64,000 bases of DNA from Rhina ancylostomus (Eukaryota). The position numbers and the translations under genes are program-made. The first letter of the stretch is position 1. Every line of letters starts with the position of its first letter. The stretch covers positions 4,063,339 through 4,127,338 of the forward strand of contig JARFYF010000012.1 in NCBI GenBank assembly GCA_030265395.1, given 5' to 3'. The notes beneath the pieces are model-generated. The model was given only the letters and a program-made list of their open reading frames with translations, searched no databases and was not told the origin of the DNA. This document shows, piece after piece, positions 4,525-55,000 of this stretch.

Positions 4525-4590
4525 GGTTTGAAAGCATTTTGGAAGGGCTGTTTGGACCTAGACTTCTAAAAGATATCAGCCTATTTGAAG
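4525..4590 (+). CDS. LCOR: LCOR upstream exon A (N-terminal extension), 66 nt, phase 1->1: (G)[21 protein letters not shown](D); whether it is coding depends on an exon 1 outside the window
   Basis: Acceptor ttccattaag|GG and donor GAAG|gtaaac. The translation closely matches the LCORL/LCOR N-terminal motif [23 protein letters not shown] as recalled. Confidence 0.85.
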
Positions 4591-6804
4591 GTAAACATTT
4601 TGTTTAATTATAACAACGTCACCTGAAAAAAAATAAGATGGAAATCACAGGGGTTTTTTTTGGACAAATTAGAAAAGAGAAATAGAAGAGAATATTTCTT
4701 GTGTTGTTCCATAGATTTATATTTTGGAGGTGGGAGAGTAAGGAATATCTTCCGACCCAAACTAAATATTCTGTAAACTAGTTATCAGCCACAGTGCATG
4801 TTTGCTATCTACTATAACGGAAAATTGGGTAATAAGAATCCTTAATATTTAGACTTGGTTGAGCATTGCGCAAGGCATAGGCATGAGGGCAAATACAATA
4901 TAAAAAAGCAAAGTAATTTTGTTAATGNNNNNNNNAAGCAAGTGGACTTTCCTGTAAAGTTCACTTTGCAAAAATACTCCAGGAAGATGGATAATGGAGG
5001 GGGGGGGGGGCGGTGGTTGGGGGTCTTCTATAAATAGATTTTGCCTTAAACAGTTTCACAAATTATAAAATTGATTTTTCACTTTTGTGCTTGATTTTTT
5101 TTGTTGATTTGTTCTGAGAAAGGTAATTAGTTTTTTGCTCACCTTAGCCAGATAGGTTACTGATTATCTCTCTGACTTTGGCAAAGGTGACAAAGACGAT
5201 GTGGAAAGGAACTCAAAGGAAAATATTAAACTTCCCAGCCAGGTTCTAAGGACGACAGTAACTGCAGATTACATAAGCTGTAGATTAGCCTCTGATTTTT
5301 TTCTAAGTGTTAATGAAATGAGGCAATGTATTTATTTTGGTTTTGATGTGTTAGAGTGAAGTTCATTTTGCAAAATTCTTGGTGAACTTAAGTTATTAGT
5401 TTTTACAGACAACTGTATATTTTATTTTAAAGAGAAAAGATAATTTGTCTTTTTAGACATCATTCGCAAGCATTATGGATCTCAGTGGCCGTATTGGAAA
5501 GGGATCTTTCTTTCATTTGTTGTTATTGAAGTGACTCTGCATCAAATTAATAAAAGGTGGGCATTAAGGGAATGTCCAGAGATTTTTTTTAAATGTTTCC
5601 TTTTTTTAAAAAAAAATGTGGCAGAAGTGGTATTAGGCTTGCCTGATAATGGCTTTCATTTTAATTTTAAAAATTCTGCTGACTTAATCAATATTTGAAT
5701 GTACATTGTTGTGCATGCATCTTAATTTTAGTTACTATACCTCTTTTGAGTTGACTATTATTAACCAGTCTTTACATTAATACATATAGTTAAAAGGAAT
5801 CCAAGTATTAAAAATTATTATCAACAAAATAGTGAAATGCGTTAATGCGAGAGATGAAATGATTCATTCCAAGTGCACTGTTTCTCACTAACTTGATAAG
5901 ATGCTGCATAAAGTTCTCATTAATTTGATACAACATTGTGCTGCAGTCCAAATTCTGTGGTAGATTCTCTGCTGCTCACTGTTTATGGCATTTCTAGCAC
6001 CTTGATTATCAGTTGGTGATGAATTAAGGAAAGTATGTTGGTGTGGCATACATTGCCTCCTCCCTGGTTTCATGATGGTGAAACATTTAAAAATGAGTAG
6101 AGTCAGTAACTTGGTTCATGATACCTTTCCTGCTGTTGGTTTTAAAACAAATATTGGATTGAGATATGTAGCTTCCTAAATTATCAAATGTGCTAGGAAT
6201 ATTTGATTTACTGTGCATTCTGGAAAGTACTTTGCCTTGGCTACAATATACTGCAATTCCTAATATTAATTCAGTATGTCATTGTGCTTTTGGAAGTAGG
6301 TTGAAATTTAGAGTGTGATTTATTATCAGACCACTTGTATTTAATGCACCTTGAATGAAAAAGAGCATTGACAGAAGGCTTAAATCCTATTGTACCTTGC
6401 ATTACAAGACAACAAAAATGTTGGCTTGGCAATACCTGTATGAAAAACAAAGGAAGAATGGAAGAGTAAAGTTTGTTTGTACACTTGAGAGGAAATTTTA
6501 AAAAACTGCGTCAGTTCTGTTTTACTTGTAAGCAATCTTGTGTATTTCATTTGCAGCAAACAAATGAATTACTCCTTTTGCTCGAGAAGGGGGGAATCTT
6601 AGAAGTATTGCCAAGTGTACCTCTGGTCGACTAAAATGTTGAATGATCTGTCATAATAGAGGTGGCTATTTGACAGATCATTCATTTTCCTAAATGAAGA
6701 ATAGATTGGTTATGGAGTGGCATGGCATGGGAGAGTGGAGAGTTGACAAAAACACATCTAAAATCTGTCTTGTGTTAGGCTAAAATTATTCTTGAATTCC
6801 ACAG

Positions 6805-6882
6805 ATTGTGAGCCTACAGGTGTTTCTGACTGGTCATTTGATGAAAATTTGTCTCTTCTGTTGCTTAAGAGAAAAACTGAAG
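6805..6882 (+). CDS. LCOR: LCOR upstream exon B, 78 nt, with an internal +1 frameshift: DCEPTGVSDWSFDEN, then LSLLLLKRKTE in the entering frame or CLFCCLREKLK in the ancestral frame
   Basis: Acceptor ccacag|AT and donor GAAG|gtaagc. DCEP..SDWSFDENCLFCCLR is the recalled LCOR family motif; an extra T in GAAAATTTGT (~6848-6850) shifts the frame. Confidence 0.8.
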
Positions 6883-7019
6883 GTAAGCAGTTTGAAATAC
6901 TAATATTACTATTTAATTTTGGTGACTGGTTGGTACACTTGGTTAGAACTAAAATATGTTGTTTATTTATCAGGTTGAGTACATTTTTTGTACAAATTGT
7001 GCTTTTTTTTTTCCCCCCA

Positions 7020-7490
7020 ACATTGAGTTTGTCATCTGCACAAGTACATGAATGCATAGGTGCAATGAAAATCTTAGTTGCAGCAGCATCACAGGCACGT
7101 AGCATCATATAAGTAGCATTCACAAGAAAAACATAAATTATACACCATTTTTACAGGACAGAACACAATCAGAACAAAAAAAAAACAAAATCCATTTTAG
7201 TGCAAAGTGATCAAAGTGGTCATAGTATTGCTAAAACTGCAGTGATTAAGGTTTCAAGAACCAAATGTTTGAAGGGAAGTAGCTGTTCTTGAACCTGGTG
7301 GTTCAGGACTTCAGGTTTCTGTACTTCTTGCCTGATGGTAGCTATGAGAAGATGGCATGGCCCAGATGGTGGGGATCCTTGATGATAGATGTTGCCTTCC
7401 AGAGGCAGTGCCTCTTGTAAATACTACCGATAGTGGGGAGGGATGTGCCCGTGATGTATTGGGCTGAGTCCACTACTCTCTACTGCTTCT
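7020..7490 (-). mobile_element. Rex1/Babar-like LINE 3' end, antisense; a short related piece lies at ~8336-8400
   Basis: gaagtagctgttcttgaacctggtggt...gatgtattgggctgagtccactactctc is antisense to the same type of 3' region as 3228-3730. Confidence 0.55.
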
Positions 7491-10400
7491 TACCTTATGT
7501 TGCATTACATTATTATTACATTATAATAATCTTCTTGATTTTGCCAATTCGCACTATAACCTTACATCATTATCTTATGCCAGTTTATGAATGGCAGTCC
7601 AGCAGAACTGTTCCTTTTTTCATCAGAGCTCACTGTCTGTGCCAACAGTTACTTTCTTAGAGCTTACACCTCCAGCATTATGTCCTATTCTAAAATAGTA
7701 GCAGCACTGGGCTACATTGAGCGAGCATTTTGAGGCCGGATGGCTCCCCTACATCCCAGGCAAGGCCTCCCGTGTTGACACCCAGGTGGCTTGTAGAGTC
7801 TCTGCCTTTGGTGCTCATGTGACCCACTGCTATCCAGCTGAACCCACATGTAGTGCCCACATGAGTCAGCTGCTGCTATTGAGAAGAAAATCACCTTCTT
7901 TTCATGTATTGGTGCATTTCTCTGTTCTGTGCCCTCTTGCAGGACTCAATAATATTGTTGGCTCTCGGGAATATTCTCCACTCGTTCCACATGCAAAGTA
8001 AATGGCTGAGACCTCTCAAGATAGCCAATATGTTTGCCATGCCTGCTGTCACTACTGCTATATATGCCAAACTCATTACCATAGGCTTTTCTATGTTGCT
8101 GCTCACTAGGTCAATTAACAAGGATAGTCCTACCAGCAAAGCATTCTTCATTAAAGGCAGCCAACACTCAACCAATAGCAATCTGACACAACAAAATACA
8201 GAAGCCATATCGCAAGGTTCACACAGCTCTTCAAGNNNNNNNNNNNNNNNNNNNNNNNNNNNNNNNNNNNNNNNNNNNNNNNNNNNNNNNNNNNNNNNNN
8301 NNNNNNNNNNNNNNNNNNNNNNNNNNNNNNNNNNNCATCTTTAAAAGAAAGAACACAATTAGAATAAAGAAAACAAAGTCCATTTTAGTGCAAAATGGTT
8401 TTTTAGCATGTTCATTATTTCTTCCCTTACTTTCTACCAGGCCAGCACCAATGTTGCTCTTGATTAGTTGTCACAAGGTCTACAAAGATTGCTTGGTGCT
8501 AATTAAAAGGCAGATCAATTCATCATGCGCTGCTCATCCAGTTTGCAATTCAGTAGTAGTAATTATACATTACTACCTCGCTTAACACTCAGGATGTGTT
8601 CCCAAGAATGAGAAGATTAAGAGCGGTACCAGAATATAATTTGCTGCTCTGCCCTCCCTATCTCTATAGTGACAAGCTCAGTGGTGGTTGAACTTGTCAC
8701 CATTGAGAAAGCTCTAGGTTGGGAAGAGTTATGCGCCCAAACACAGAGGCATAGACGACAGCTTCTATCACATATAACGGGCTGCTAAGAGAGATTTTCG
8801 GATCAGACTAGGATGGACGACACATGGAGAAGGTGCTACCAGTTCCCAGCAGTGGCCTGTACTTGCAATGCTGACCAGAGTGCAGCTCTGAACCTACTAT
8901 TTTAGTGCGACACCAGATACCCCAGCTACACGCAACAACAGTCTCTCCAACTAAATTGTTAAGTCATCGCTGTGGGATTGCCAAGTTCCTAGCACAAACT
9001 TGGCATGCAGCCCAAGCAAATGTCTCTTTAACATCTTATTGCATCACATATGACATGCCACCTAGAAGCTGAATAATTGTAAGGAAATTGGAATTCACTT
9101 TCCTTGTAACTGCAGACAGCAACAAAACACAGTCATCGATAATGTTAGATTTTTCTTTTGACTGCTTGTTGTTTCTCTTCCTGATGGTGGTAAGTCTGTG
9201 TAACATTTTGTGGCCCTCAACATATAGTTTCTGTTATCTGATAATTGCAAGTTATAAATTGCAATGGTGAAGAAGTAGTCACTATTGTACATGCAATCCA
9301 AAGTAAACAGTCCCAGCCATTCTTACAATGACAGACAACATTCCAATTTTGCTTACAGTAAAAGCCTTTATTTTCTTTTGATTTGAAGGTCTTGGTGCAG
9401 TATTTCTAAATCATTTTCTTTAGATTTCCAACATTTGCAGTCTTTTGTTTCTGCCAGATCTCCTGAAACTAGATATCGGAGATAAAAAATGTATGAAAAC
9501 ATTGTTTTCCATCACACAGGATATCCTGATTTGGCTAGCATTGCTATAAAGGCTTTTTTTTGTGTTTACCTTCTCGGTAGGTTTTGATGAGAATCTCAGG
9601 AACAATCAACATAATTTTTCAGTAAAGTCACTTCTATATCTGCCTCTATTTATGTTTAGTCCTACAAATATTAAAGAATTAATCTAAAATATGTACATGG
9701 AATATTTTAAAATTATATATTGACCTGAACACAGTAAATAGTTCTGTGGTGTATAATCTACCTTTAAAACATCCAAGCGTTTATTTTTGCCACATTCTTC
9801 TCTCTTAGCTTTTTTAAAGAAATTTAGTTTCTTGAATACTTCCAGAAGGAAGAATCTTATTTAACCAGTGATAATTCATTTACATGGTTTGCCCCTCTCT
9901 TTCCTTCATTGAGGAAATAGGAATGAAACAGGTTGGTAACAAAGCTTTGGTGAATATAGCTCTACTTGTTAAAGCTTAAGCATGTGTGCAGACTGTTTCA
10001 ATTCTGTTTTCTGTTTCACTTATTTGTTGAGATTTGTGTTTTTTGTTTAATATCTGCTTTTACGGTCCCTTCTCATTCTTTCCCAGTACACTGCCTCATT
10101 CCTGCAGTTAATTAATAGCTTCTATGTTTATATATTATCAATTGATAGCTGGGCTTGAATGTGAAGAAAGACCTATTGCATGAGTTGAATGCTTTGGCTA
10201 TTTTTTATGCTTGTTGAAGTGTAGGATTGATGAACCAATTATTCCTTTCAGTAAATTTCTGATGAGAAATATGTAATAGAGTTTCCTGTTTTGTGAAGCA
10301 ATTCAAGTAAATTCATTGTGATTCATCTTGCATCTGTCTTGCAGTATCTGTTAATTATGATTAGAACATTGTGCGTATGAAATTAGTTTGTATCATATTC

Positions 10401-11249
10401 TTTGGGCACTGTGAGAGCTTTTATAGAATTCAACATGGTGTTTACAGTTATATGATTCATGTTTTATTACATATGCATTCAGATTGTTGGTAAGTGAATG
10501 ATAAACTGAGCAGTGTCTAGGAGGTGCACTTAATGAGGAGTGGGATTTAAAGATGCTGTGGTGCACCTGTCTAAGAATTGTAACTGACTTCAAGCAGTAC
10601 AGGTTAGCTTTAAGTGTGCTAGCTACTTATGACACTTTCCTCTTGCAGAAGCATTCAGCTAGTCAATAATGCAGCACGCACTTATTGATACTATTATATT
10701 AGCAAGCTGCATAAAGTCATTGTGCTGTCTTTGCACTGAAAGGTCACGTGTCAATTGTGCACTGTAGCCATGTGCTTCTTTGGGAGTGTCATCAAATTTA
10801 GCCTACAATATTTGCATTAGCCTCTTGTTCGGAAGTTCTTCAACTAAGAACAAAATGAATAGATGAAATGAGAATTCTTCTTGGCCTCAGTGTGTTTTAT
10901 CTTTGGAAGTTGGGATTTTAAATTCACATTCTTTGAATATACAATATTGCTTTTTGTTTATAGCTCATTTCCTGACTTTGCAGATATTGTAGTTCATAAT
11001 GTGCAAATATTTTTAACAGCCTTACAAAGAACTGTGAGTAAATTCTTAGGATAAACAGAATTAGGTGATCAATTACATTATGAGTGACTGATCTTTGGGA
11101 ATGAATACAGAGCATGGACCACAGAAATTCAATATTTTGTGGTTGTACCATGTAAGCTGTCGATATCTTGTTGGAGGACTCGTGGCAATAATACCTCCAC
11201 CTTTTACTCGTGGAACTCTGTAAATTGCCCACCAGCTTCTATTAAATTA

Positions 11250-11647
11250 AATTTAAATTTTATTTACAGCATGGTAACAGGCCCTTCTGGCCCAACAAGT
11301 CTGTGCCACCCATTTTAAACCACAAATTAACCTACCTGTACATCTTTGGAATGTGGGAGGAAACCGGAGCACCCGGAGGAAACCCACGCAGACACGGGAG
11401 AANNNNNNNNNNNNNNNNNNNNNNNNNNNNNNNNNNNNNNNNNNNNNNNNNNNNNNNNNNNNNNNNNNNNNNNNNNNNNNNNNNNNNNNNNNNNNNNNNN
11501 NNTGTGGGAGGAAACCGGAGCACCCGGAGGAAACCCACGCAGACACGGGAGAACGTACAAACTCCTTACAGACAGTGACCGGAATCGAACCCCGATCACC
11601 GGTGCTGTAATAGCGTTGCGCTAACTGCTATGCTACCGTGCCGCCCA
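11250..11647 (-). mobile_element. V-SINE (HE1-like), young, spanning an assembly gap
   Basis: V-domain core tgtgggaggaaaccggagcacccggaggaaacccacgcagacacgggagaacgtacaaactcc, plus a tRNA-derived head (gaatcgaacccc...gctaactgctatgctaccgtgccgccc). Confidence 0.85.
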
Positions 11648-12512
11648 ATGTGTAGAATTGATGGTGTAGAATTTATTCATTCTATATTACCAGCTGCAAG
11701 CAACACTACTTGCTGTCAATGTTGAAGAGGGTAGTTACTAATAAATACAAAAAGTAAAACACTACAGATGCTGAACCACTTAAAAAAAAAGCGCTACCTG
11801 ACCCGATGAGTGTTTTCAGTCTATTTCTAGAGAACTGGAGTTTTTGTGTGTCACTCTACCTTAGAATGTCACAGAACCTTTTCTCCCTGTGCTACCATGA
11901 CGACGGAATAATAGCAAGTTGGGATAATCAGTGATTGGCATTATCATCATAGTACTCCAAAAGTTACTGCTGTATCATTACATCATTCCCATAACATATC
12001 CTATTTAAAATTTGAGAGGGTTTTTTTTAATCTTGATGGATTACAAAATAAACATTCATTGGGAACTTCAGTCTGAATAAATAGAACTTAAAACTTCAAT
12101 CAGATTTTCTGACTGGTGTAATAATAAATATCATGTCTTTTTGGTCTCTCTTGTTTTTTAATACTCTCTGGTGCGGACATAATGGGTTGAATAGCTGCCT
12201 TCTGTGAAGCAACCATGCTATGATTCAATGAATATGAGTAAAGTGAATTTTATCATATCATTAACAATTGCTTTAGATAATTTGTATTCCTGCTTATTTA
12301 ATCTAGTGTACAGTTTGGTCTTTAATTTTACGGTTGTATTTTCAGTAAAAGCATTAAACTATGTAGTACATTAGTTTGTTTTTGAAAGAAGAAGCAAAAC
12401 TGTGCACAAAGATGCAACTTGTGTACCTAGTAATTTGTAATATTCATTTAGTGAATTTGGTAATGCTACCTCTTTTGCAATTCTAATTGTATGTTTGCAT
12501 TTTTTTTAACAG

Positions 12513-12645
12513 GAACATTCACTTGCTCTTGAACAACCAAAATTAGAAGTTGGAGAAGAGAAATTGTCCAGACAGGAACAGACCAAAATCAACCCCTTAG
12601 AGAGATGAGCAGAAGAATTTCTCAATGCTATACTACAGAAAAGAG
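12513..12645 (+). pseudogene. LCOR: LCOR upstream exon C, 133 nt, with in-frame TGA at 12606-12608: EHSLALEQPKLEVGEEKLSRQEQTKINPLER*AEEFLNAILQKR; probably 5'UTR/uORF or skipped
   Basis: Acceptor ttttttttaacag|GAA and donor AGAG|gtaaat. It matches the recalled family motif ERQAEEFLNA (LCORL ECQAENYLNALFRKKD), with the stop at the Gln position. Confidence 0.8.
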
Positions 12646-12742
12646 GTAAATCATTCCAATAGCTATTATTGTGAACTATATTCCTTCCTGTGAAGAGGAT
12701 ACTTTAGAAGCTACATCCTGTACTGTTTTTGCTTCTATATTT

Positions 12743-13004
12743 TAGAACATAGAACAGTATAGCACAGAAGAGGCCCTTTGGCTGACAATGTTGTGCCAAC
12801 ATATCTATTCCCTCCTACCTACAGAATGCCCATATCGCTCTATTTTCCTCTCATTCATGTGCCCATCCAAGTCCCCCTTAAAAGCCCCCAATGAATTTGC
12901 CTCCACCACCCTATCAGGCAACGCATTCCAGGCATCCACGACTCCGTTTAAAAAAAAAATGCCCCTCACGTCTGTTCTGAACCTACCCCCCTCACCTTAA
13001 ATGC
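12743..13004 (-). mobile_element. CR1/HER1 3' tail, antisense
   Basis: tagaacatagaacagtatagcacagaagaggccc... is the reverse of the CR1 tail. Confidence 0.8.
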
Positions 13005-14019
13005 AAGTTTCTAAGTACTTTACAAAGTAATTGAATGTGCTTTTAAGAAGTTTTTCCAGTTTAAATTGTGAAAATTGTCTAAATCTTGTAAACAGACATT
13101 TGTTAGGAATAAATGATTGATTGTTAAAGTGGTTGTGAGCAAGGTTAACTATCCATATGGTTAACTATCCATATCACTGTGGACAACTATGCAGCCTCTG
13201 ACAGAGATGATATCATCCTCTCGAGAGCTTACCAGGTTTCATTCTTTCTTGTCATGGCCATAGAATCACCTGCATTGGCTTCTTTTCATGCACCTCTCGT
13301 ATTCCCTGAAGTTCCAGCCATAATCTTTTCCTATTACTCATCTTCATGCTGCTACATGGTAAATCATTCAAAAATACAGCATCATTTTCTGTACCAGCAA
13401 CACGTAACTCTTTGTCACCACTGCTCCTTGATGCCTCCATTGTATTTAAATTATTGGTCTACTTGTGCAACATCCAGTACCAGTTGAGCAACAATTTGCT
13501 TTATGCCCGCCACAACCTCAGTTCCCTCTTCATGGTAATGGCTAGAAAATGAACAAATTGTTTGCAATCTTGATGCAAAATTCGATCCAGAAATGAGTGA
13601 TGGATCGCATATCCACTTTGTTGCGAACATTTCTACCCTTGCCCTACTCCACCTCTGCCTTAGTTTGTCTGCTGCTGAAATTATTATTCATCTCTTGGTC
13701 CTTTNNNNNCAGTCCTCATTCTATCTATTCTAACCCTTTAAGTCATCCACGGTCTATTGGGAGTGGCTGTCTTTGATCTTTAAAGACTGTAATCCTTTTT
13801 GTATTCAATGCATTCAGATACTTAATGTTACTGTGGAGTTCATGGTTTTGCTAGATGCATATTTTGGGGGGAATGCCAGTATTGATTTGGCACTTTTGAC
13901 TGCTGGATTTGTCAATGAAGATGTTTGTAAAGCTCGAAGCCTGAACATTGCTAGTTATCAGTTTGGTTCACCAACATTGTTGTCTTCTTAGGCAGACAGT
14001 TAGGATCAGTGACAGAGTG

Positions 14020-14900
14020 GAAGTAAGCCAGTTTTGTGGGTTCTGTGGTTCTGAATGAAGCCAATGTGGGAACCACAGACTCTTCCACAGATGAGGCAGG
14101 TGGTGGCCAATGGGGTGGGTGAGTGGGTAGTTTGTGAGATGGTCCACTCTGCTCTGTGTGATCCTATAAGGTTTTTAATACCACACTTTGAGTAGTCATG
14201 AGTCAGAAATTTCCAGGAGCCAGTGTGGATGTTGTATTTCTTCAAGGAGGGTTTGGGAACATCCTTGAATCTTTTCCTCCTTTGGTCTGCTAATTTCTTT
14301 CCTTGACTGTATTCAGAAAAGAGTTCTATTTGAGAATCTGGTATCATGCATGAGAGCAAAGTGACCCACCCAATGTAGAGAACTGAGTGCATTAGGGTCT
14401 CGATCCTGCAGATGTTGGCTCAAAAGAGGACCTTGATGTTGGGTCATGTCTTCTTTCATTGAAATTGGAGGGTTTTTTTGGAGACTGCATTGGTGGAATT
14501 TTTACAGTGCCTTGAGATGCCTGCTGTAGGTAATCCAGATCTCATAAGCATATGGAAGGCAGGGGTCCCTGCTGCTTGGTAGACCTAGAGTTTTGTGCCA
14601 GGTCAAAAAGTCCTTTTCTTCAGTTGACCAAAGGTTGTGGTCATGCGTTGAAGCTGCTGGTGAATTTCATCACTGACAACTCCCTTCACCGAAAGGTGGC
14701 TCCTGAGTTTGGAAAGTGGTCCATGTTTTCCAGGGTGAATGTTATTGTTAGAAGGAAGTGGTACAGCAGGGGCAGGTTGGGAAGGGGCCTTTTATCTTGC
14801 AGATGTTAAGGGAAAGGCCCATCCTCTAGTATGCATCAGTGAAAGCTTCAACGAAGGCTTGGAGATTGATCTCCTATACTGCAGCTCAATTATTGAGTAT
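14020..14900 (-). mobile_element. RTE-clade LINE 3' fragment, antisense
   Basis: The minus ORF has LFSE..QGK....RKRFKD..K.SLKK.NI...W and a C-terminal C2H2-like TCLICGRVCGSHIGF..H.RTHK, typical of RTE ORF2 ends. Confidence 0.7.
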
Positions 14901-15746
14901 AGTAGATTTCAAGTGGTAGGACTCTGGATGATTATTTTATGCTATATGATTATTTTGCAAAATCCTCAGTAGTGCCTGTTGATCATACATGATCCAAGTT
15001 TGCCATTAAATATCTGATGAAAGATTATTGTAGTGTTGAAAGGGTGTTCCATCAGGAGGGCATGCTGAACATAAGTACTCAATACCAACCAGCCTATTGC
15101 TAATACACAGGGTGGCTACATTGGTAAGTGCACAAAAGCGAGTAAAGTTCAGATTTTGGTGAGAGTGAGAATTTAGTGCAGAGGAGTAGGTGTTTTATTT
15201 TATTTTTGGCAATATAGGGTGATTCATTCAACATTTCAAAGTTTTGTCCAGGGTTTAGTACAAAGTACAATTTAGTGTGTATAAATGCAAGAAAGAACGT
15301 TTATGTTGTGACTAGCATCTTAGGAAAAAGAGGAGGCAAGAAGTCCTCTTTAAGAATAATAGGTTAAATGAAGGGAGAGGACCTCAAGGGTTATAATCTT
15401 GAGATTAATGTCTGAACCATGAGAAAATTGACATAGGAATAAGGAGATCGGTGTAGGCAAGCAGAATGGCTGAAGAAACAGTGTTCAAGTGGTTTCATTT
15501 CATGGGATTCTAGTACAAGCACCTCCATACAATGGCTCTACCTAAATTGGATTAAGACTAAGATCCAGGCAAAAATGGTGGTTAGGATGTTTGTAAGGAT
15601 TATAGCATAGCATTACCTAGACTACTAAGGGTTAAACCACAACGAGAGATTACTTAAGCATTGTATTTTTGCTGGATTGGGAGTTCAGTAGATAGTCTAA
15701 AAATTAGAAACGGACCTTTCGGAGTAAAATTTAAAACTTCTACACG

Positions 15747-16034
15747 TACAGTAAAACCCTGATAATCTGCTCTCTGACTGGAAATCTCGATAGTTCAGCA
15801 TCTGGCTAACCAGGGTGCTGATTCCCATACTCCCTTTCCTCTCACCAGGACACCAATTCTCTTGCTTTCTTGAAGCTTATTGGAAAATTTATTATTCAAT
15901 TGTATGCCATTTAAAAATAGTGAATTAAAAGTATGATGGAGTGTTAATAAAACAACATCTGATTGTCCAGAAAATTTTGTTGGTATGGCATTGCCAAAGT
16001 TCCAAGTGTGTTTAGATTAATGGAGATTACTGTA
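15747..16034. mobile_element. Tc1/mariner (Tigger-like) MITE with imperfect TIRs and TA target-site duplication
   Basis: TA|CAGTAAAACCCTGATAATC ... GATTAATGGAGATTACTG|TA; a second related copy lies at ~22917-23130. Confidence 0.6.
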
Positions 16035-16564
16035 CATAGAATTTTTTAACAATGTGTATTAAAGGGCAAGCGTAGGTACATTTATTTAGATCCTTAATTT
16101 TATTGAATAGTGGAACATATCAGTAGGAGGGAAATGGTTTCGGTGATTTGTTGTTTCAATGTTTGTCTTAGTGCTTCACCTCTGTACATTGTTTCTGACT
16201 TTGTTGATGTTGGCAAGTGTTTTTTTTCTCATAGCCAAGTAAATTTTTAATGTGCTCAGAAAACAAATGAAGACAGTTTCTCATTTATTTTGGTGAACTA
16301 TTTCATTCCATGTTTTTCCTTGCCTTAGGATCCAGCTGACAGGAAGATTTAATAAGCAATAAAATGACATGCTATGACATATATTGATTTTTAAGTAGTA
16401 ATGCTCACATACTTTAATCAGGGTTGTGCTAAACTCTGATCATAAACTATATTCCCAGGCAATGGTTCCTTTTTCTGTCTCTGGGAGGAATAACTTTTCA
16501 AAGGTTAAGCCAGGTAAAAGATTAAAATATCTCTTTTTGAAAATGTGTGGCTGGTTTAACAAGT

Positions 16565-16830
16565 GCTCAAAACTAGAGGGCATAGGTTTAAGATGAGAGG
16601 GAGGAGGATTAAAGGGGATCTGAGGGGAAAGTTCTAGTGTTGGTATCTGGAATGAGCTGCCAGAGGATGTGGTGAAGGCAGGAACAGTAGGCATCTGGAC
16701 AGATACTTGGATGAGCAGGGCATAGAAGGATATGGAATTAATGCAGGCAAGTGGGATTAGTATAAATAGACATGGTGCAGCATAGGAGTGGTGGGCCGAA
16801 GGGCCTGTTTCTATGCTATACAACTCTCAT
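16565..16830 (+). mobile_element. CR1/HER1 3' tail
   Basis: actagagggcataggtttaag...gtgggccgaagggcctgtttctatgctata. Confidence 0.85.
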
Positions 16831-17055
16831 TATATGACTAACTTTTTTGCTTTTAGTTGTCTCTGCAGTAAGTTGTCTCTTTTATTTTTAAATCTTGGGT
16901 ACTTTAGCATTAAAGAAGTCGAGGAGAGAGAAGAACAGCACCCTTGTAAAATTTGCTGTATATTTCCCATAAAATGAGTAACATTTGCTTTTCTTGCCTT
17001 TGCAGATAATCTGTGGGTTGTGGACCCCACTATTCCTTTAGTGGCTTGTGAGATT

Positions 17056-17278
17056 ATGCATCGAATGATCAGGGAGTTTGCCACTGAATATACCTCAAAA
17101 ACTAGCACTTCTCAGGACTCCATTGTACTCTCCAGCACCAAGGACCAAAGTACATCTAAAACACCTGTGCTCAGTGCCAGTGCTCTAAATCCTGTTTTAA
17201 GCAAGTTGCTTATGGCTGATCAAGATAGACCATTGGACCTAACCGTAAAAAAGTCCAGCTCTGAATCAGACAATCAAG
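17056..17278 (+). CDS. LCOR: LCOR main coding exon 1 (exon spans 17006-17278; ATG at 17056): MHRMIREFATEYTSK...NPVLSKLLMADQDRPLDLTVKK...; contains the LxxLL NR box and the PLDLT CtBP motif
   Basis: Matches the recalled human LCOR start MQRMIQQFAAEYTSK...NPVLSKLLMADQDSPLDLTVRK. Acceptor tttgcag|AT at 17005/6 and donor CAAG|gtaagt at 17278/9. The frame is also open upstream of the ATG (DNLWVVDPTIPLVACEI). Confidence 0.96.
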
Positions 17279-26595: not shown

Positions 26596-28619
26596 GCTTT
26601 AATGAAATTTCAGTTTCTCAAATACTTGTGTTTGTTGTCTGGAATTTTCCATCTTTAAGTTTTGGAATTAAAAAAAGGGTATCTGGAGTAAATTTCTGAT
26701 TGATCCAACTTGAATATTTGAATCTGAAATGAACAATTTTCAACATGATCTCTTCCTGTCTATAATTGTGACACCATTATGAAGGGTAAGTGTACCTGGT
26801 GCTGTGAGTAGCTATGTACAAGAGCATTTCCCAGGAGTGCTACCCTACCCCTTTAGTATTTATTTCCACTCTGCATAAAAACAGTGTATTTGACAGAGTT
26901 TTATGGGAACCTGTGTGAATGTTGTTGAATATGGAATGGAGGTTTGAGGATTCCAGGAACATTGTCATTTGAACTTGGTTTGTATTTTGAAAGCATATTA
27001 GGTAGAAGAGGCTTAGACTAGTGTAGTATTTTTTGCATTCTCAGGATGTCCCATGTGCTTAACAGCTACATAAATCAAAAACTATATCTGTAGTACTGCA
27101 GGTAATTTGGTCTTTCTGTTTCAAAGATACAACAGAGAAAAAGGCTGAGGGATTTATCCCAGAAGACTGAGAGAATATGTTGGCAATGTATAATATTGTG
27201 GAAGATTTGGACAAATGGAATATAAGTCATCTCTTCTAATATGTACACATTTTAAGGGCAAGGCTGATACTTGCAAATTTAGAACAAAAGAATATAGATG
27301 GTAATTTATTGCACGAAGCAGGGATGCTAGGTATGTGGAATAGATTGTTGCCATTTTTGGTGGACCAGTGAACCTTGCTGTGCTTTTGAGAAAAAGCTAG
27401 GAAGGTTCTTGTTAAGGTTATTGCAGCAAAGGATTACAGTGGATTGAAAATTTGTAGTGACTGAAATTTTCTACATTGGATGTATTCAGAAGTTGAAAGA
27501 GAAATTCAAGAGTGTAATGCAGAAATAAAACCAAACTATTTATTTAAAAAAATCTAGCAATAACAGCTTCCATTTATATAGCACCTTTTACATAAATAAC
27601 CATCCTAAGGTGCTTCATGGGTTTGTTGGACAAGATTTGATTCTTAGCCAGATAAGGAAATACAAGAACAGTGATCAACCCCTTGGCGAAAGAAGAGAGT
27701 TTCAGAGTATCTCAAAGTATGTTTGACAGTAGGAAGGAAAAGAAATTTAGGAAGGCAATTTCAGAACTTTGCTTTAAGCTGTCTCTGGTGGANNNNNNNN
27801 NNNNNNNNNNNNNNNNNNNNNNNNNNNNNNNNNNNNNNNNNNNNNNNNNNNNNNNNNNNNNNNNNNNNNNNNNNNNNNNNNNNNNNNNNNNNNNNNNNNN
27901 NNNNNNNNNNNNNNNNNNNNNNNNNNNNNNNNNNNNNNNNNNNNNTCCGTGTGTGGATAGTGAAACAGAGTTAACGTATTGGATTGAAAACCATTAGAAC
28001 TGGGAAAGAGGAACAAAAGGTTAATTTTAAATTGTGGACAAGAGGGCAGGGGATGGATAGGAGAAAAGGAATATCTGTGGTAGGTTGAGGCTAGGGTTGC
28101 TGTGGCGATGTGCTGTTAATAGAGACAGTTATTAGACTGTGATAAACAAGTGTAACGTGTTGCAAGTAACAAGTCAGTGTGCTCAAGTGTTGAGGGGAGG
28201 AGAAAGTACTGAGCCAATATCACAGACTGACCTGCAGCAAAATTAGCCGGTTCTGACATAGTCAGAGAAAGCAAATTATCAGAAGTTGGAGAAAACGATA
28301 ATATATCTGAATGGCTGCAATATCTTCATAGGGGAGATGAGGTGCTGTTCCTCAAGCTTGATTTGGGCCTTGGTTATGAGAGAGTTGAAGGCCACTGGCA
28401 GATGGATCAGAGTGGGAGTAGAATGGAAAATTAAAGATAAGTCAGTTTGGGGGTGCCTAACTCAAGGTTAAAACACGAGAATGTCAGCAATAGATCTTGT
28501 TCTTAGAAATAGCTCCATCGTTGTCAGATGGAGTTAGCAAGTTCAGTAAAGAAATCAAACTACAGGAAGTTTAATCTGGGAGTAGTCCATCCAGTGCTTT
28601 ATTATTTTCAGAAAGACAA

Positions 28620-29033: not shown

Positions 29034-29133
29034 ATGGAGTGCTTGACCTGTCTACTAAGAAGAGTCCTTGTGCTGGCAATGTTTCTGCAAGCAAGTTTCT
29101 GGATTGCTCCTCTTCTGCTGTTTTAGCCAAAGG
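29034..29133 (+). CDS. LCOR: LCOR coding exon 2, 100 nt, phase 1->2: DGVLDLSTKKSPCAGNVSASKFLDCSSSAVLAKG, with the second CtBP motif VLDLS; absent from the ORF track
   Basis: Acceptor tttctttatccag|AT and donor AAAGG|gtaagc. DGVLDLSTKKSPCAG matches recalled human LCOR, and the phases join both neighbouring exons. Confidence 0.96.
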
Positions 29134-40896: not shown

Positions 40897-41857
40897 GCGT
40901 CCTGGGAGAAGCGGCCAGCAGCAATTGGACTGCGAATCGCAAAGTATTGAAGGGGCACTTCCAAAGTCGCTAAGAAGCTTTCAGACCGTGACACAGGACG
41001 GTTATGGATCTTCTGTTATTCTCAAAATACCAGTGACTCGATCAGCCCAAAAGAGTGAGGAACCTATAAACTGGAATGAGGCATCTTCCACATCCAGTTT
41101 AGGACCAACATCTCAGCACCGTGGACAGCACTTAGTTCTAGCCAGAGAGGCCCCTTGGGCCAAACCACATTATGAATTCAATCTGGAGCATGCCAGTTTC
41201 AGGGGAAATGATGTGTGTACCGATGCTAAGGAACTTTCTTCACGCCAATTTGCATTTCAGAGAGGATCGGTTCAGACAAAACATGATGCAAAGAAAGACC
41301 AAGGCTGCTCAGCTTCTGTGGATTTGAAGATACCACAGGTTCGAGGAATGGATTTCACTTGTGGAACCAATGTCTCAAATCATTATACGTGTAGCCCATT
41401 GCTCATGAATTCACAGCTTGAAAGCGCACTTCACAGGAAACTCAGAGTGATCCTTCCGAAGCAGAATTTGTGGCACAGGAAAGGGGTGGTGAGTTTGAGT
41501 GATGGAGGACAGGATTCCTGGGATTCGCTTGTGGATCAGCCAACCTCCAGCAAGCAGCAGGGCACATATGAGCAAGAAGGTGACTCAAAGCAGCCCAGAA
41601 AAAAGCGAGGACGCTATCGACAATATAATAATGAGATCCTTGAAGAAGCAATCACTGTGGTGATGAATGGGAAGATGAGCGTCTCAAAAGCCCAGAGTAC
41701 TTATGGAATCCCGCATAGTACCCTGGAATATAAAGTGAAAGAGCGGCTGGGTACTTTGAAAAACCCCCCGAAGAAGAAGTTGAAACTCATCAATGCTGAG
41801 CCCCAAGAGGTGGATGATGAGCTGGAACACAGTCCTAGCAATTCAAAAGCTGAGTAG
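40897..41857 (+). CDS. LCOR: LCOR terminal coding exon: GRPGR...AREAPWAKPHYEFNL...VDLKIPQVRGMD...pipsqueak HTH (KQPRKKRGRYRQYNNEILEEAI...YGIPHSTLEYKVKER), NLS PPKKKLK, stop TAG
   Basis: Long open frame in the ORF track (40793-41857); the true start is the acceptor atcctag|G at 40896/7. WAKPHYEFNL and DLKIPQVRGMD distinguish LCOR from LCORL. Spliced CDS is 223+100+961=1284 nt, 427 aa. Confidence 0.97.
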
Positions 41858-50900: not shown

Positions 50901-52056
50901 CAGAATATAATGAGCTCTAGTTTGTAGCTAGTAATATGGTATATGTGTTATGCTTAATGCCATCCACATATTAAGCTCACTGCACTTGCATCAGAATGGA
51001 GTTTGATACTAATATATAGTATGCTTAATGCCATCTGCATCTGAAATTCTTTCAGATGGAAAGAATTTCATTCTACAACACCTAATGTCTCCTATACCTT
51101 GCTATATGCATAAAAAGAAAGCAGTAATGTTTTGTTACAAATGCTGGCTAAAACCACATTTGTTACTGGTGTCATAACCTAGTGTAGTATCTTGGAAATC
51201 CAGAACAAAGGAGTAATATCTCACAATGGCACTTATATAGGATCTTATAACACCCGAAAAACATCTCAATGTACTTTACAAAAGTAGATTTTTTTTTAAG
51301 AATACTTAAATTAATTATCTGGAGCTAAAATTCCAGAAGCATCCAGCAAGACGAGCAGCATCCACTGGGAGAGAAAGAGAGCCTATTTTTCAGGTGAAGG
51401 ACTCTTCATGTGCATCAGACCTGAAACATGAACTCTTTCCAGCGTTTTCTGTCTTTGTGCTAAAATTACTTTTGGAGTGGAGTGAGTGAAAAGCATGCTT
51501 TGAACCTGGAATGGAAAAATGTTATTGAACTCCATTCTAATGCAAGTGCTGCTACATTCCCTGCATCAGAGCATAGGCTTAAAGCCCCTAAAGAAGGTTA
51601 GCATCCCTAACGGGTACATTGCTGAGGGAGAAATCAAACAATTTTCCACCTTCATCAAAAAGAACCTTTCTGGTGAATTGACCTTTGAACCCAGTTATCC
51701 CTTTGGTGTGGGTCAGTTCTGAGACCTCTTGACAATTCGCATTCCATTCTTTTTCTGATGTATATAACAAAAATTCAGTTTTATTCCAAATGCTTATTTA
51801 GTTGAAATTGTAAACAGTAAGCTTCAGCTTCTTGGAAAGTGCTACCTTTTGTAGTGCGCATCCATAAATTTAATTTAAATCATTGCAGTTGATCATTCAA
51901 GATATTGAAGCAGACTGAATTTAATATTCCAATCTCACATTTTTAAAATTATCAAACCATTTATGCAATTTTCCTCCAAACTTGCAATACATTTAGATCA
52001 TTGAATGTAATCTTGATTTGAGCTGTGTTTATCTGATTTTCTAATCCAGGTAATAG

Positions 52057-52070
52057 GTTGCCATGGAAAC
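52057..52070. promoter_or_regulatory. RFX X-box-like palindrome GTTGCCATGGAAAC
   Basis: 13/14 match to the RFX consensus GTTGCCATGGCAAC, in non-repetitive sequence. Confidence 0.4.
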
Positions 52071-55000
52071 TATGACCAAGACATTAAAGGGATGTCGGGT
52101 CAGGGGCAACATACCTCATTTGTGAAACAAATTAGATGTGTGACAGCACAACACAAGTGTAAAAATCAGGGCAGTTTTGGTCACAGCAACTGCATTTAAA
52201 ATATAATTTGGCAAACCATAGCACCCTCTTAAATATTGTGGATTTGTTTTTATTATGTATAGATTACAGCACCTGTTTCTGTTGGAATGCTATTTTTATC
52301 ATCACATAGAAAAAATAAATATTCTTTAATATATTAGAGAAAAGATTGAAGTAGACAAAATTGTCTGCAGCAGACGTCTAGTTGCATCACCATCATTATT
52401 TTTGCTCATCACACAGTTCTTGAGGTTAATTTGAAGTGACGTTGATTCACCATTTTTATCCAGAATGGTGTGCCTAGCCTTTCAATATACTGTTACTGTG
52501 TAAACATTCTTACCTTTTATTAAAAAAAAGTGATACCATTTTAAAATCTAAATCTTATTTCAAAATATTTATGGTAGGTTGAAGTTTATAATATGTTTCC
52601 ATATGTGTATATATAGAGCAGTGACTTGTAACAGTGCGGTATTTTTAAAATATTTATGAGCACGTATCTCTGTTTCATTAACCATCTACTATATTTCTCT
52701 GCTCTATTCCCTACAATAAGTAACACATTAACTCATTACTTTCTAATTTATTCATCTTTTGCTGTCATACAGGTGTTTTTTTTAATTGTTAAAAAAAAGT
52801 CTTTCCCACTTCAGGTAAATTTCTAACACACAAAGATCTTTTAATATCGTAATTTACATTCCATTTGTGTCTGTGTTGTCCTAGGTTTATTTATTGTGCT
52901 GGTACCAACGAGCTTGGGAACTTTGGTATTTAATGTATTGTCCTGCTGTGCCAGTGCACACAAGATAATTCTTCATCTCTATCACCAGTGATGGCACAGC
53001 AGCCATTAGAATATAGTATTCTATAATTCTGAAGGCTCTTTAAAAACGCAGCTCAATTTTGAGAACACTGAATTTCTTGTTGCGTTCAGAATATTTGTCA
53101 TGTTAGTGGACGTAATACAGTTGTTTCTTGCTGCCACCTCCTTTTATTGTGACCCTAGCGGCGGTGCTGCCTCTGAGTCATCTTGTGCGTAATTGTATTT
53201 GATCTTTTAATGTAAGCCTGAAATTGTTCATAAATTGATATTGGAGCCAGTTTATCATTGCTCTGCATTTCAGTTAAAGTACCAAAGTTAGAACGACACT
53301 TTTTTTGTACTATTTTGTTTTTTGGTTAGATCAGAGGGTAGGAACTTTGAGCAGTCAAACCATTTAGCACTCCATCACAGAGTATAGTAAACATTACTGC
53401 AAATTGCTTACCTTTTTGTGATGCACAAAATCTGTTGGAAAATAGTATTTGTGTAAAATTATTTCTATAATACTAACATTCAGTGGGCAGTGACTGATTT
53501 CCCACTATTAATTTGATCAAGGCCAATAGGAAAAATTGAGTTATGCAAGTAATTAGCAGTTAACTTGCAGCTAAACCAGAAAATGATAACAGTGTGTGTT
53601 GAGGCAGAGGGCACAGGGACGGCATAGAAGTTGAACTCCAGATTTGGTACAGCTTTAGCTAGTGATAGCAAGTGTTGAGTTGAGGATATTTTGAACTAAA
53701 AACTATTGTTTTTAATTTGATTATGGTGGTTATAATGAGCATTTTGGACCCAGTTTATAGTTTAGCATAATTGAATCTGCAATGATAATAACAGCTGCTT
53801 CAGAGATTTTAAGAAAATCTGGCTTCAGTATTGACTGTGAACATGTCAGGTTGGTCAGAATAATTTGTCAGTTTATTAGAGCTGTACATGCTTCTGGTTT
53901 CAAAGCAGAAAATCTATTGAAGCATTTCAATTGTATTTTATCCAAGTTTATAACTGCCACTACTTTCCAGTTCTATGGTGTGTGCAATATATTAATGATG
54001 TAACATTTCTCAGTAATACATTTTAAAATGCATCCACTAATTCAGATATTCTCCATACAGTGGCAAACAGTAAAAAGGTGTGCTATTCTCAAGGTAGGGG
54101 GAAAATATTGACAGAATGGTAGGTTTTGTTTCTTTTTGATGTGTATATCATGTATGCATTGATTGGTTTCATAAGCAGCTTGAAACTCAGGTATTTTTCT
54201 CACCATTTTCTCCATCAGTTTCTGTCTACCCTGTAGCTTTCCCAGAAGAATCTTTATTCATGAAAAAGCCTTGACCATGAACTTTGACAAGCAGCTAGCA
54301 GCGTCTGTCAACTCAGCAGAGCCTGATACTTCCTTTACTGAAATGAAGCCCAAAAATCAATTTTAGCAACCTTAACTGAGAAGTTTTAATTTGAGCTTGG
54401 TTTTCTACAACTTTTTTTTAAGTTGTTTAAGGTTGTTGGTTCTTATTGTAGTAAGAAATGAATGGAGCCATGTGTGAAAAGACTAAGCTTAAAAATATAG
54501 AATTTTTAAATTCCCCCCGTTGCTTTCTACAATCCTGCTGCATTTGTGTAGCTTCCTTCATTCTGCTGCTTTGTTCAATACTTGTTGAGGTTTCTTCTTC
54601 AGCCACTAATGCCTATTTCATTTTAAGACATGAAAATTTTGTTACATGGCCAATCTTTTTATATAAAATGACATTTTATGACAACATGTTAGGGAAAGAT
54701 AGAAGATAATAAACACTGCTATCTGCAATTAAATACCAATATCTGCAACTTGTACCTTGTTATTATTCCTAACAACAGATGAGATGAGATTGTGTCAGTA
54801 CCAGAAGTCAAGATGCAAGTTGTATCGTGTGACTCCTCATTATACGTTCTAATGATGCCACTTGTTAGCTAAGTAGTTAATCCAAACAAATGGAAATATG
54901 TCCCATTGTAAAGGCAGGCTCTGTTGATTGCAGTTTCCAATGATGTCACTAACTTGTCACAATTACAATATCCCTACAAAATACAAAAGATATTTCACAA

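What the first reader, a model, noticed from the sequence alone, without database searches (positions are those of the whole stretch)
4525..17055. LCOR N-terminal extension is broken twice, but the frameshift makes skipping the stop exon restore the frame
Seen: exons A, B and C keep canonical splice sites and clear LCOR/LCORL homology. Exon B has an extra T (~6848-6850) and is one codon short of the recalled CCLRRDK motif, giving 78 nt and phase 1->1. Exon C has TGA at 12606. Splicing A-B-C stops at 12530-12532. Splicing A-B directly to the 17006 exon gives an uninterrupted frame (...SFDENLSLLLLKRKTE|DNLWVVDPTIPLV...MHRMI), as does A directly to 17006. Recalled knowledge: this region is coding in LCORL and conserved upstream of the annotated mammalian LCOR ATG. 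Inference: either a lineage-specific loss of the extension, or exon C became a poison switch between a long remodelled LCOR (lacking the CxxCC cluster) and the short ATG-17056 form. Two separate lesions make a single sequencing error less likely.
Basis: partly seen in the sequence, partly recalled or inferred. Interest (0 to 1): 0.75.

Follow-up and report, generated by a model that had tools for sequence, protein, structure and literature searches.

The report
Rays lose LCOR's ancient N-terminal domain
In this ray, a frameshift and a stop codon, both also seen in a sequencing run's own contigs, break the LCOR exons for a cysteine-rich N-terminal domain kept from amphioxus to mammals, so the gene likely makes mainly the short corepressor, and no ray or skate protein model we could read carries the domain either.

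Summary
Observation confirmed; both lesions are real. The window is LCOR of a batoid. Exon B has +1 T and lacks a codon; exon C has TGA at 12606. Contigs of a run of the same organism match both exons without a difference, a second species shares the TGA, a third has CGA there. The broken exons encode part of a 142-aa N-terminal extension. It is complete in 10 of 12 shark species, but exon A or B sequence is in 0 of 21 protein models from 7 batoid species. Its cysteine module reaches lamprey and amphioxus and has no Pfam or PDB match. The 427-aa protein from ATG 17056 is intact. Best reading (0.55): an eroding, dispensable extension, now mostly 5' leader; the TGA is a late CpG passenger behind the real stop at 12530. 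The B-to-D rescue is in frame but about 30% likely by chance, and RNA contigs of a relative run A...C-D unbranched. Unexplained: exon A and the first half of B show 0 of 24 conserved residues changed against 7 of 23 downstream: a recent frameshift, or a selected upstream peptide.

The parts
4525..4590 (+). Exon A of the LCOR N-terminal extension (66 nt, phase 1 to 1), intact
   Evidence: 21 of 21 residues equal the shark majority; AG/GT ends
6805..6882 (+). Exon B (78 nt; 80 nt expected from the shark protein), frameshifted; encodes the CxxC(C) half of the cysteine module only in the ancestral frame
   Evidence: X1 contig 5929-6981 identical
6848..6850 (+). T run holding the extra T (+1); a 3-nt loss follows about 20 nt downstream
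   Evidence: tblastn frame switch and one-residue gap
6841..6843 (+). ATG in weak context that the +1 T puts in frame with exon C; opens a 45-codon upstream ORF ending at the TGA 12606
12513..12645 (+). Exon C (133 nt, phase 0 to 1), diverged: 16 of 44 residues differ from the shark majority
   Evidence: spliced to D in RNA-guess runs of a relative
12530..12532 (+). Stop reached in the exon-1 frame of the A-B-C transcript, 113 nt before the C/D junction
12606..12608 (+). TGA in the ancestral frame (Gln in other vertebrates, CGA in organism C): likely CpG decay
   Evidence: same letter in X1 and X2, C in X12 and X16
17006..17278 (+). Exon D: 17 eroding codons of the extension, then the short start; holds the LSKLL and PLDLT motifs
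17056..17058 (+). ATG of the short LCOR form (A at -3)
   Evidence: matches the start of batoid and shark short models
29034..29133 (+). Exon E, intact, second CtBP-type motif at its start
40897..41857 (+). Last coding exon of the HTH_psq isoform, intact; short product 427 aa
   Evidence: 374 of 427 residues identical to Rhinoraja P0139

Best explanation
This ray's LCOR gene has a real frameshift in exon B and a real stop in exon C, so the full 142-aa N-terminal extension cannot be read through exons A-B-C-D, and the gene likely works mainly through the intact short protein from ATG 17056, with the old coding exons now likely serving as 5' leader. Shown: the lesions, the open 427-aa product with its NR box, CtBP-type motifs and HTH_psq, the TGA shared with one relative and absent in another. 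Inferred: constraint on exon C and the start of exon D relaxed early in batoids (six residues shared with skate, two at otherwise near-invariant sites); the frameshift then uncoupled the cysteine module from the body; the TGA (CGA>TGA) came later as a passenger in an already dispensable frame. Inferred: an A-B-C-D mRNA read from the exon-1 ATG would give a peptide of about 86 aa and be a candidate for nonsense-mediated decay, while short LCOR would come from other 5' exons, leaky scanning or reinitiation, as the short forms annotated in intact sharks suggest. In-frame skipping (exon1-D, A-D, A-B-D) would be a minor by-product of exon phases. Whether rays broke the form once or several times is open.
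For: Lesions in run contigs. Exon A or B sequence in 0 of 21 models of 7 batoid species against complete forms in 10 of 12 shark species (Fisher p=0.0007, species not independent) and the CxFCC motif in 89 of 106 non-chondrichthyan proteins listed. At sites at least 90% invariant in 87 distinct vertebrate blocks: this ray changes 5 of 13 in C and 2 of 10 in the extension part of D, skate 3 of 13 and 3 of 10, against means of 0.55 and 0.08. R140C is private (X2, X12, X16 read the ancestral letter at 17047), so erosion goes on. Short product intact. Short MHRMI-type forms are annotated in intact sharks too. Human PALI1 used as full length in PMC8319299 has 1557 aa (passages), the length from the short ATG in ape models (1556-1560), so the short form is biochemically active in mammals.
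Against: Exon A and the first 15 codons of B have 0 of 24 near-invariant residues changed (p=0.004 against C and D; the panel was filtered on motifs in A and late B, which favours invariance there). Exon C has kept its 44 codons, open in two skates and without gaps in organism C, longer than a neutral exon might. The batoid-wide claim rests on annotation models, not on DNA: I saw only the clusters I looked up, for stingrays and mobulids only PALI1-type forms, and Callorhinchus (0 of 2 models), Heterodontus and Hemiscyllium also lack a complete model. Exon B of organisms B and C was not visible (tables cut). An A...C-D contig is assembled in both RNA-guess runs of organism C although a stop 113 nt before a junction should invite decay; organism C may be intact.
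Confidence: 0.55

Rival explanations
1. Selected upstream peptide: the frameshift is old, and exon1-A-B plus six codons of C is still translated under selection as a separate peptide of about 86 aa (or as a regulatory upstream ORF / decay switch) that keeps the first half of the cysteine module and sets the dose of short LCOR and PALI1.
For: 0 of 24 near-invariant residues changed before the frameshift, 2 of 11 after it in B and 7 of 23 in C and D; chance of 0 of 24 at the downstream rate 0.0002. All splice sites canonical. A...C-D is the assembled RNA form in a relative. Hemitrygon keeps exon 1 open with its ATG and three cysteines.
Against: A recent frameshift explains the same pattern without new function. 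Late B is still 10 of 12 like sharks in the old frame. Hemitrygon exon 1 has 6 of 30 changes against 0-4 in sharks. The invariant C70/C73 pair is lost from the peptide. No synonymous-site data, and exon 1 lies outside the window.
Confidence: 0.18
2. One reading: exon C is a poison cassette, and skipping it gives a selected long LCOR (exon1-A-B-D, or A-D, or exon1-D) without the CxxCC cluster.
For: A-B-D and A-D are open. It predicts conservation of A and early B with decay of C. Hemitrygon X1 is annotated as exon 1 joined to D (P0122); three sharks have annotated exon1-A-D forms. In X16 a contig starts at 17004, a branch point, so a second path into D exists.
Against: Chance of such a frame outcome about 0.3. 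The extension part of D, which all these forms translate, is eroding. No batoid model with A or B among 21. In X12 and X16 the contig that holds C and D also holds A without a break, and the depth sums leave no room for a laid A-D or B-D junction contig (contigs drop rare forms, and this is another species). The TGA is not needed for the switch.
Confidence: 0.15
3. History rival (overlaps the best reading in mechanism): the full-length frame stayed coding in this lineage until recently, the lesions are confined to this species and its close kin, and other batoids lost the form separately or only lack it in annotation.
For: Exons A and B are nearly shark-identical in the old frame. Organism C has a sense codon at 12606, the ancestral letter at 17047 and no gap in C. 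Skate models start at a Met directly before exon C, not at the ATG that this ray's +1 T would put in frame, which hints at a different lesion. An unnamed fish protein shows a +1 shift at the same site (P0342), so the site slips easily.
Against: Six residues shared by this ray and skate, absent from the shark panel, include R109P and F122L, so relaxation began on the batoid stem. Seven annotated species of two further orders all lack A and B forms.
Confidence: 0.35
4. Assembly or consensus error.
For: The window has 19 N gaps, and the insertion lies in an A/T run.
Against: X1 contigs are identical over both exons, no other letter at 12606 in X1, and X2 of another species shares the TGA.
Confidence: 0.02

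Closest known systems
LCOR / PALI1 (Mblk-1/E93 family; HTH_psq PF05225, DUF4553 PF15090)
   Same: Orthologue by sequence and tree. The short product has the LxxLL NR box, two CtBP-type motifs and the HTH exon, the features described in PMC5343783 and PMC8864842 (passages).
   Different: The 142-aa extension found in annotation models of sharks, bony fish and tetrapods cannot be read through A-B-C-D. The passages I read describe no such domain; the PALI1 exon lies outside the window (no hit).
LCORL / PALI2 and amphioxus LCORL-like protein
   Same: Share the N-terminal module: C70 and C73 invariant, C5, C10, C31, C56 at least 90% in 34 aligned sequences; lamprey P0307 and amphioxus P0390 named.
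   Different: There the module is part of the main protein; here it is cut off. Whether batoid LCORL keeps it (and buffers the loss) was not tested.
Isoform-specific truncations of LCORL (loss of the PALI2 PIP domain in livestock, PMC12448305)
   Same: A frameshift removes one domain of one isoform class at an LCOR-family locus while other products stay (passages).
   Different: Those are C-terminal, in the paralogue, and segregate in breeds; this is N-terminal, in LCOR, and shared between wild species.
Poison exons / uORF-forming conversion of coding exons into 5' leader (general class, recalled)
   Same: A retained exon with canonical splice sites brings a stop 113 nt before the next junction.
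   Different: No regulated inclusion or decay was shown; exon C is diverging, whereas poison exons are typically highly conserved (recalled).

Membership tests
LCOR orthologue | LxxLL NR box and CtBP-binding PxDL[ST] motifs after the short ATG | tested here: met
   LSKLL at 48, PLDLT at 59, VLDLS at 77 of the 427-aa product
LCOR orthologue | C-terminal HTH_psq exon, open | tested here: met
   79-84% identity to shark and skate LCOR over 319 aa; these proteins hit PF05225
LCOR orthologue | Groups with chondrichthyan LCOR | tested here: met
   Batoid clade 96/94 in a tree of 21 rows, 107 columns; LCORL rows were not included, best hits are LCOR
LCOR orthologue | PALI1 (C10orf12) exon | not testable with these tools
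   Not in the window; no genome held
Full-length vertebrate LCOR | Open exon1-A-B-C-D frame with CxxCC | tested here: not met
   Stop at 12530; lesions in run contigs
Regulated poison exon | Stop more than 50-55 nt before a junction on inclusion | tested here: met
   113 nt; holds only if translation starts in exon 1, which is outside the window
Regulated poison exon | A productive skipping isoform is expressed | tested here: inconclusive
   No RNA of this organism listed; no A-D or B-D contig seen in a relative, tables cut
Regulated poison exon | Inclusion form rises on NMD inhibition | not testable with these tools
   needs an experiment
Regulated poison exon | High sequence conservation of the exon | tested here: not met
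   16 of 44 residues changed in the old frame; DNA-level conservation across orders not measured
Zinc-binding domain (N-terminal module) | Conserved Cys pairs | tested here: met
   C-x4-C and C-x2-C from amphioxus to sharks
Zinc-binding domain (N-terminal module) | Cysteines meet in a fold, or match a known zinc finger | tested here: inconclusive
   Model pTM 0.21, no Foldseek match, best PDB sequence hit E 0.68, no Pfam

The most novel reading that the evidence does not exclude
An old batoid frameshift split LCOR in two: exons 1-A-B now make a selected upstream peptide of about 86 aa (or decay switch) that controls the short LCOR/PALI1 protein, while rays and skates live without the otherwise chordate-wide, unnamed cysteine domain on this PRC2-linked corepressor: a natural domain knockout across a whole vertebrate clade.
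Probability: 0.18. Interest if true: 0.8.

Novelty: new variant of a known kind. Interest (0 to 1): 0.5.

Why it matters
The extension is conserved in gene models from amphioxus to apes, yet has no Pfam family, no solved structure, and the PALI1 construct treated as full length in a key biochemical paper has the length of the form without it. A ray lineage, perhaps all batoids, without it is a natural knockout that shows the domain is dispensable in a vertebrate and gives a handle on what it does. It also shows coding exons turning into 5' leader step by step, with a datable order (relaxation, frameshift, CpG stop). No link to any ray trait is shown.

Tried and rejected
Whole genome not held. 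No RNA holder listed as such for this organism; X12 and X16 are RNA by guess only, and the tool marks X16 as probably DNA, though both show a C-D junction. In one search repeats filled the tables (40 of 388 substitution rows, 12 of 72 indel rows, 15 of 1262 joints shown), so exon B of organisms B and C and any B-D joint could not be read. Protein search with exon C alone: 8 candidates, no hit. Exon B pattern in metagenome contigs: 6 matches; the one I aligned (L006) is a chance 20-mer, the other five lie on contigs of 36-105 kb and were not examined. Rfam: 0 matches in the window. Atlas: LCORL clusters at 0.81-0.85, leads only. Fold of the domain: pTM 0.21, no match. Rejected: frame repair by another donor at the end of B (no GT/GC in the needed phase between 6850 and 6900); an internal acceptor in C at 12547 would regain the old frame but runs into the TGA, and the relative uses the normal acceptor; -1 ribosomal slippage (wrong direction for a net +1); readthrough or selenocysteine at 12606 (site is Gln or Arg elsewhere, and it lies behind the 12530 stop); a second intact copy of the exons in the window (none). 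Earlier findings: nothing in three look-ups. Literature: nine searches listed no paper whose title or abstract start deals with an LCOR N-terminal extension or its loss in batoids; LCOR + ribosome profiling + N-terminal extension gave 0 papers, LCOR + shark + cartilaginous 1 unrelated paper. Conway et al. 2018 (Mol Cell) was seen only as a reference, and no supplements were read; either may discuss the long form.
Full report
Observation. Exon D ends at 17278. From ATG 17056 through exon E (29034-29133) and the last exon (40897-41857) the gene gives an open 427-aa LCOR with LSKLL, PLDLT, VLDLS and the HTH exon. Coding exon 1 and the PALI1 exon are not in the window. A tree of 107 columns places the window among batoids (96/94), outside skates and outside stingrays plus mobulids, weakly sister to the latter (82/77).

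Are the lesions real? One run holds 0.93 of the sampled words of the last exon and 3' region (X1; it may be the source sample). Its contigs 5929-6981 and 11812-12814 cover exons B and C with 0 other letters and 0 gaps. X2, another species, shows no other letter at 12606 (0 of depth 6.21). X12 and X16, a third species and RNA by guess, read C at 12606, giving CGA, with 6 other letters and no gap in exon C; three of the six are listed. So the TGA is inherited, younger than the split from organism C, and fits CpG decay. The frameshift is shown only for organism A: the X2 contig over exon B has 23 other letters and 41 gap letters at unlisted places, and exon B of organism C was not listed.

What is broken. 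The exons encode residues 33-142 of an extension in front of the short ATG. Among the models I fetched, 10 of 12 shark species have the complete form; Hemiscyllium lacks B and Heterodontus has an odd model; Callorhinchus shows it in 0 of 2 models. The CxFCC motif of exon B is in 89 of the 106 non-chondrichthyan proteins listed. In batoids, 0 of 21 models from 7 species carry exon A or B sequence: Hypanus, both Mobula and Rhinoraja start at the short ATG or later, Amblyraja and Leucoraja have forms that enter at an open exon C, and Hemitrygon X1 joins exon 1 straight to D. These are annotation models from the clusters I looked up, not a census. A profile of the extension finds 240 proteins at E up to 0.001, 150 listed, among them LCORL, lamprey and amphioxus (names; the amphioxus match covers profile positions 4-87). 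C70 and C73 are invariant and C5, C10, C31, C56 nearly so in 34 sequences. No Pfam family covers it, no PDB sequence beats E 0.68, and the model is too poor to read (pTM 0.21; no fold match). Zinc binding is a guess from the cysteine spacing.

Pattern of decay. Against the majority of 10 sharks this ray differs at 0 of 21 residues in A, 0 of 15 in early B, 2 of 12 in late B (old frame), 16 of 44 in C, 4 of 17 in the extension part of D and 6 of 74 in coding D; sharks differ on average by 0.6, 0, 0.2, 3.7, 1.3 and 2.3. At sites at least 90% invariant in 87 distinct vertebrate blocks the counts are 0 of 14, 0 of 10, 2 of 11, 5 of 13 and 2 of 10; skate changes 3 of 13 in C and 3 of 10 in D, against non-batoid means of 0.55 and 0.08 (the panel was filtered on motifs in A and late B). 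Six residues are shared by this ray and skate and absent from the shark panel, including R109P and F122L, so relaxation of C and early D began on the batoid stem (inference). The untouched A and early B (0 of 24 against 7 of 23, p=0.004) is the main fact my best reading does not explain by itself.

Splicing. In X12 one 747-nt contig lies on C (record 240-372) and goes on into D (373-647); in X16 a 442-nt contig lies on C. The mean depth of the bin that holds exon A equals each contig's depth times 66/431 (1.8 and 1.02), so the same contigs very probably carry A. They begin 241 and 281 nt before C, room for A and B, but B itself is not shown. A retained B-D or A-D branch would have broken these contigs, and the depth sums leave no room for such a junction contig. 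In X16 the D contig starts at 17004, a branch point, so a second path into D exists; by the same sums it probably comes from outside the laid stretch (inference). Contigs show presence, not absence or level, and this is a relative that lacks the TGA and may be intact.

How it most likely works (0.55). The full extension is no longer made; the short protein carries the known functions; exons A-C persist as leader, and an mRNA with all of them would give a peptide of about 86 aa from exon 1 (32 codons taken from Hemitrygon and sharks, plus 54 here), stopping 113 nt before the C/D junction. The TGA at 12606 lies in a frame that exon-1 ribosomes never reach; it only ends a 45-codon ORF from the weak ATG 6841. 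The restored frame on skipping C follows from exon phases: about half of frameshifts make B symmetrical and about 0.6 of these leave 11 codons open (0.29), and exon1-A-D forms are annotated in intact Mustelus, Cetorhinus and Rhincodon. Separately, on history, a recent break here with separate losses or annotation gaps elsewhere is about as likely (0.35) as one old break: skate models start at a Met just before exon C rather than at the ATG that this ray's insertion would put in frame.

Compared with what is known. The gene is ordinary LCOR. Passages read in PMC5343783 and PMC8864842 describe the NR box, CtBP motifs, HTH and the PALI1 exon, not this domain. PMC8319299 uses a 1557-aa full-length PALI1, which equals the length from the short ATG in ape models (1556-1560 in five). 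PMC12448305 shows isoform-specific frameshifts in the paralogue LCORL with effects on body size (passages). PMC12897451 (passages) gave nothing on an N-terminal cysteine domain in crustacean E93. Nine searches listed no paper on the extension or its loss in batoids; the library lacks most subscription papers, I saw Conway 2018 only as a reference, and I read no supplements.

Verdict. Real, inherited, and probably part of a wider batoid erosion of an ancient, uncharacterised domain. The class of event (loss of an isoform, coding exons turned leader) is known; this case seems undescribed. Interest 0.5; 0.8 if the upstream peptide proves selected across rays and skates.

Noticed in passing
protein P0342: An unnamed 97-aa fish-like exon1-A-B protein shifts frame by +1 at the same site as this ray (same LSLLL run follows): a slip-prone A/T run, by error or by parallel lesion.
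   Followed up: no
P0261 (Hemiscyllium), P0150 (Heterodontus), P0267/P0162 (Callorhinchus): No complete extension in the models seen; Hemiscyllium has an unrelated stretch in place of exon B. Annotation gaps or further losses.
   Followed up: no
window 17047: T here turns a near-invariant Arg into Cys; X2, X12 and X16 have C, so it is a private CpG-type change.
   Followed up: partly
window 27619-27693 and 52053-52097: Short matches to alternative first exons of Amblyraja isoforms X4 and X5: internal 5' exons of LCOR/PALI1 shared with skates.
   Followed up: no
window 4881-5311: Depth in RNA-guess runs (X16 13.8, X12 3.27) in a bin that is single-copy in the DNA runs: possibly a cassette exon or a low-complexity match (G run near 5000).
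   Followed up: partly
P0070, P0346 and other bird models: Birds have annotated forms joining exon 1, by a donor a few bases earlier, in frame to exon C, skipping A and B.
   Followed up: no
P0392 (Branchiostoma floridae, 2054 aa): Amphioxus has a long isoform with the N-terminal module and no HTH motif by my pattern, the layout of PALI1/2, which reviews call vertebrate-specific; homology of the long exon not tested.
   Followed up: no
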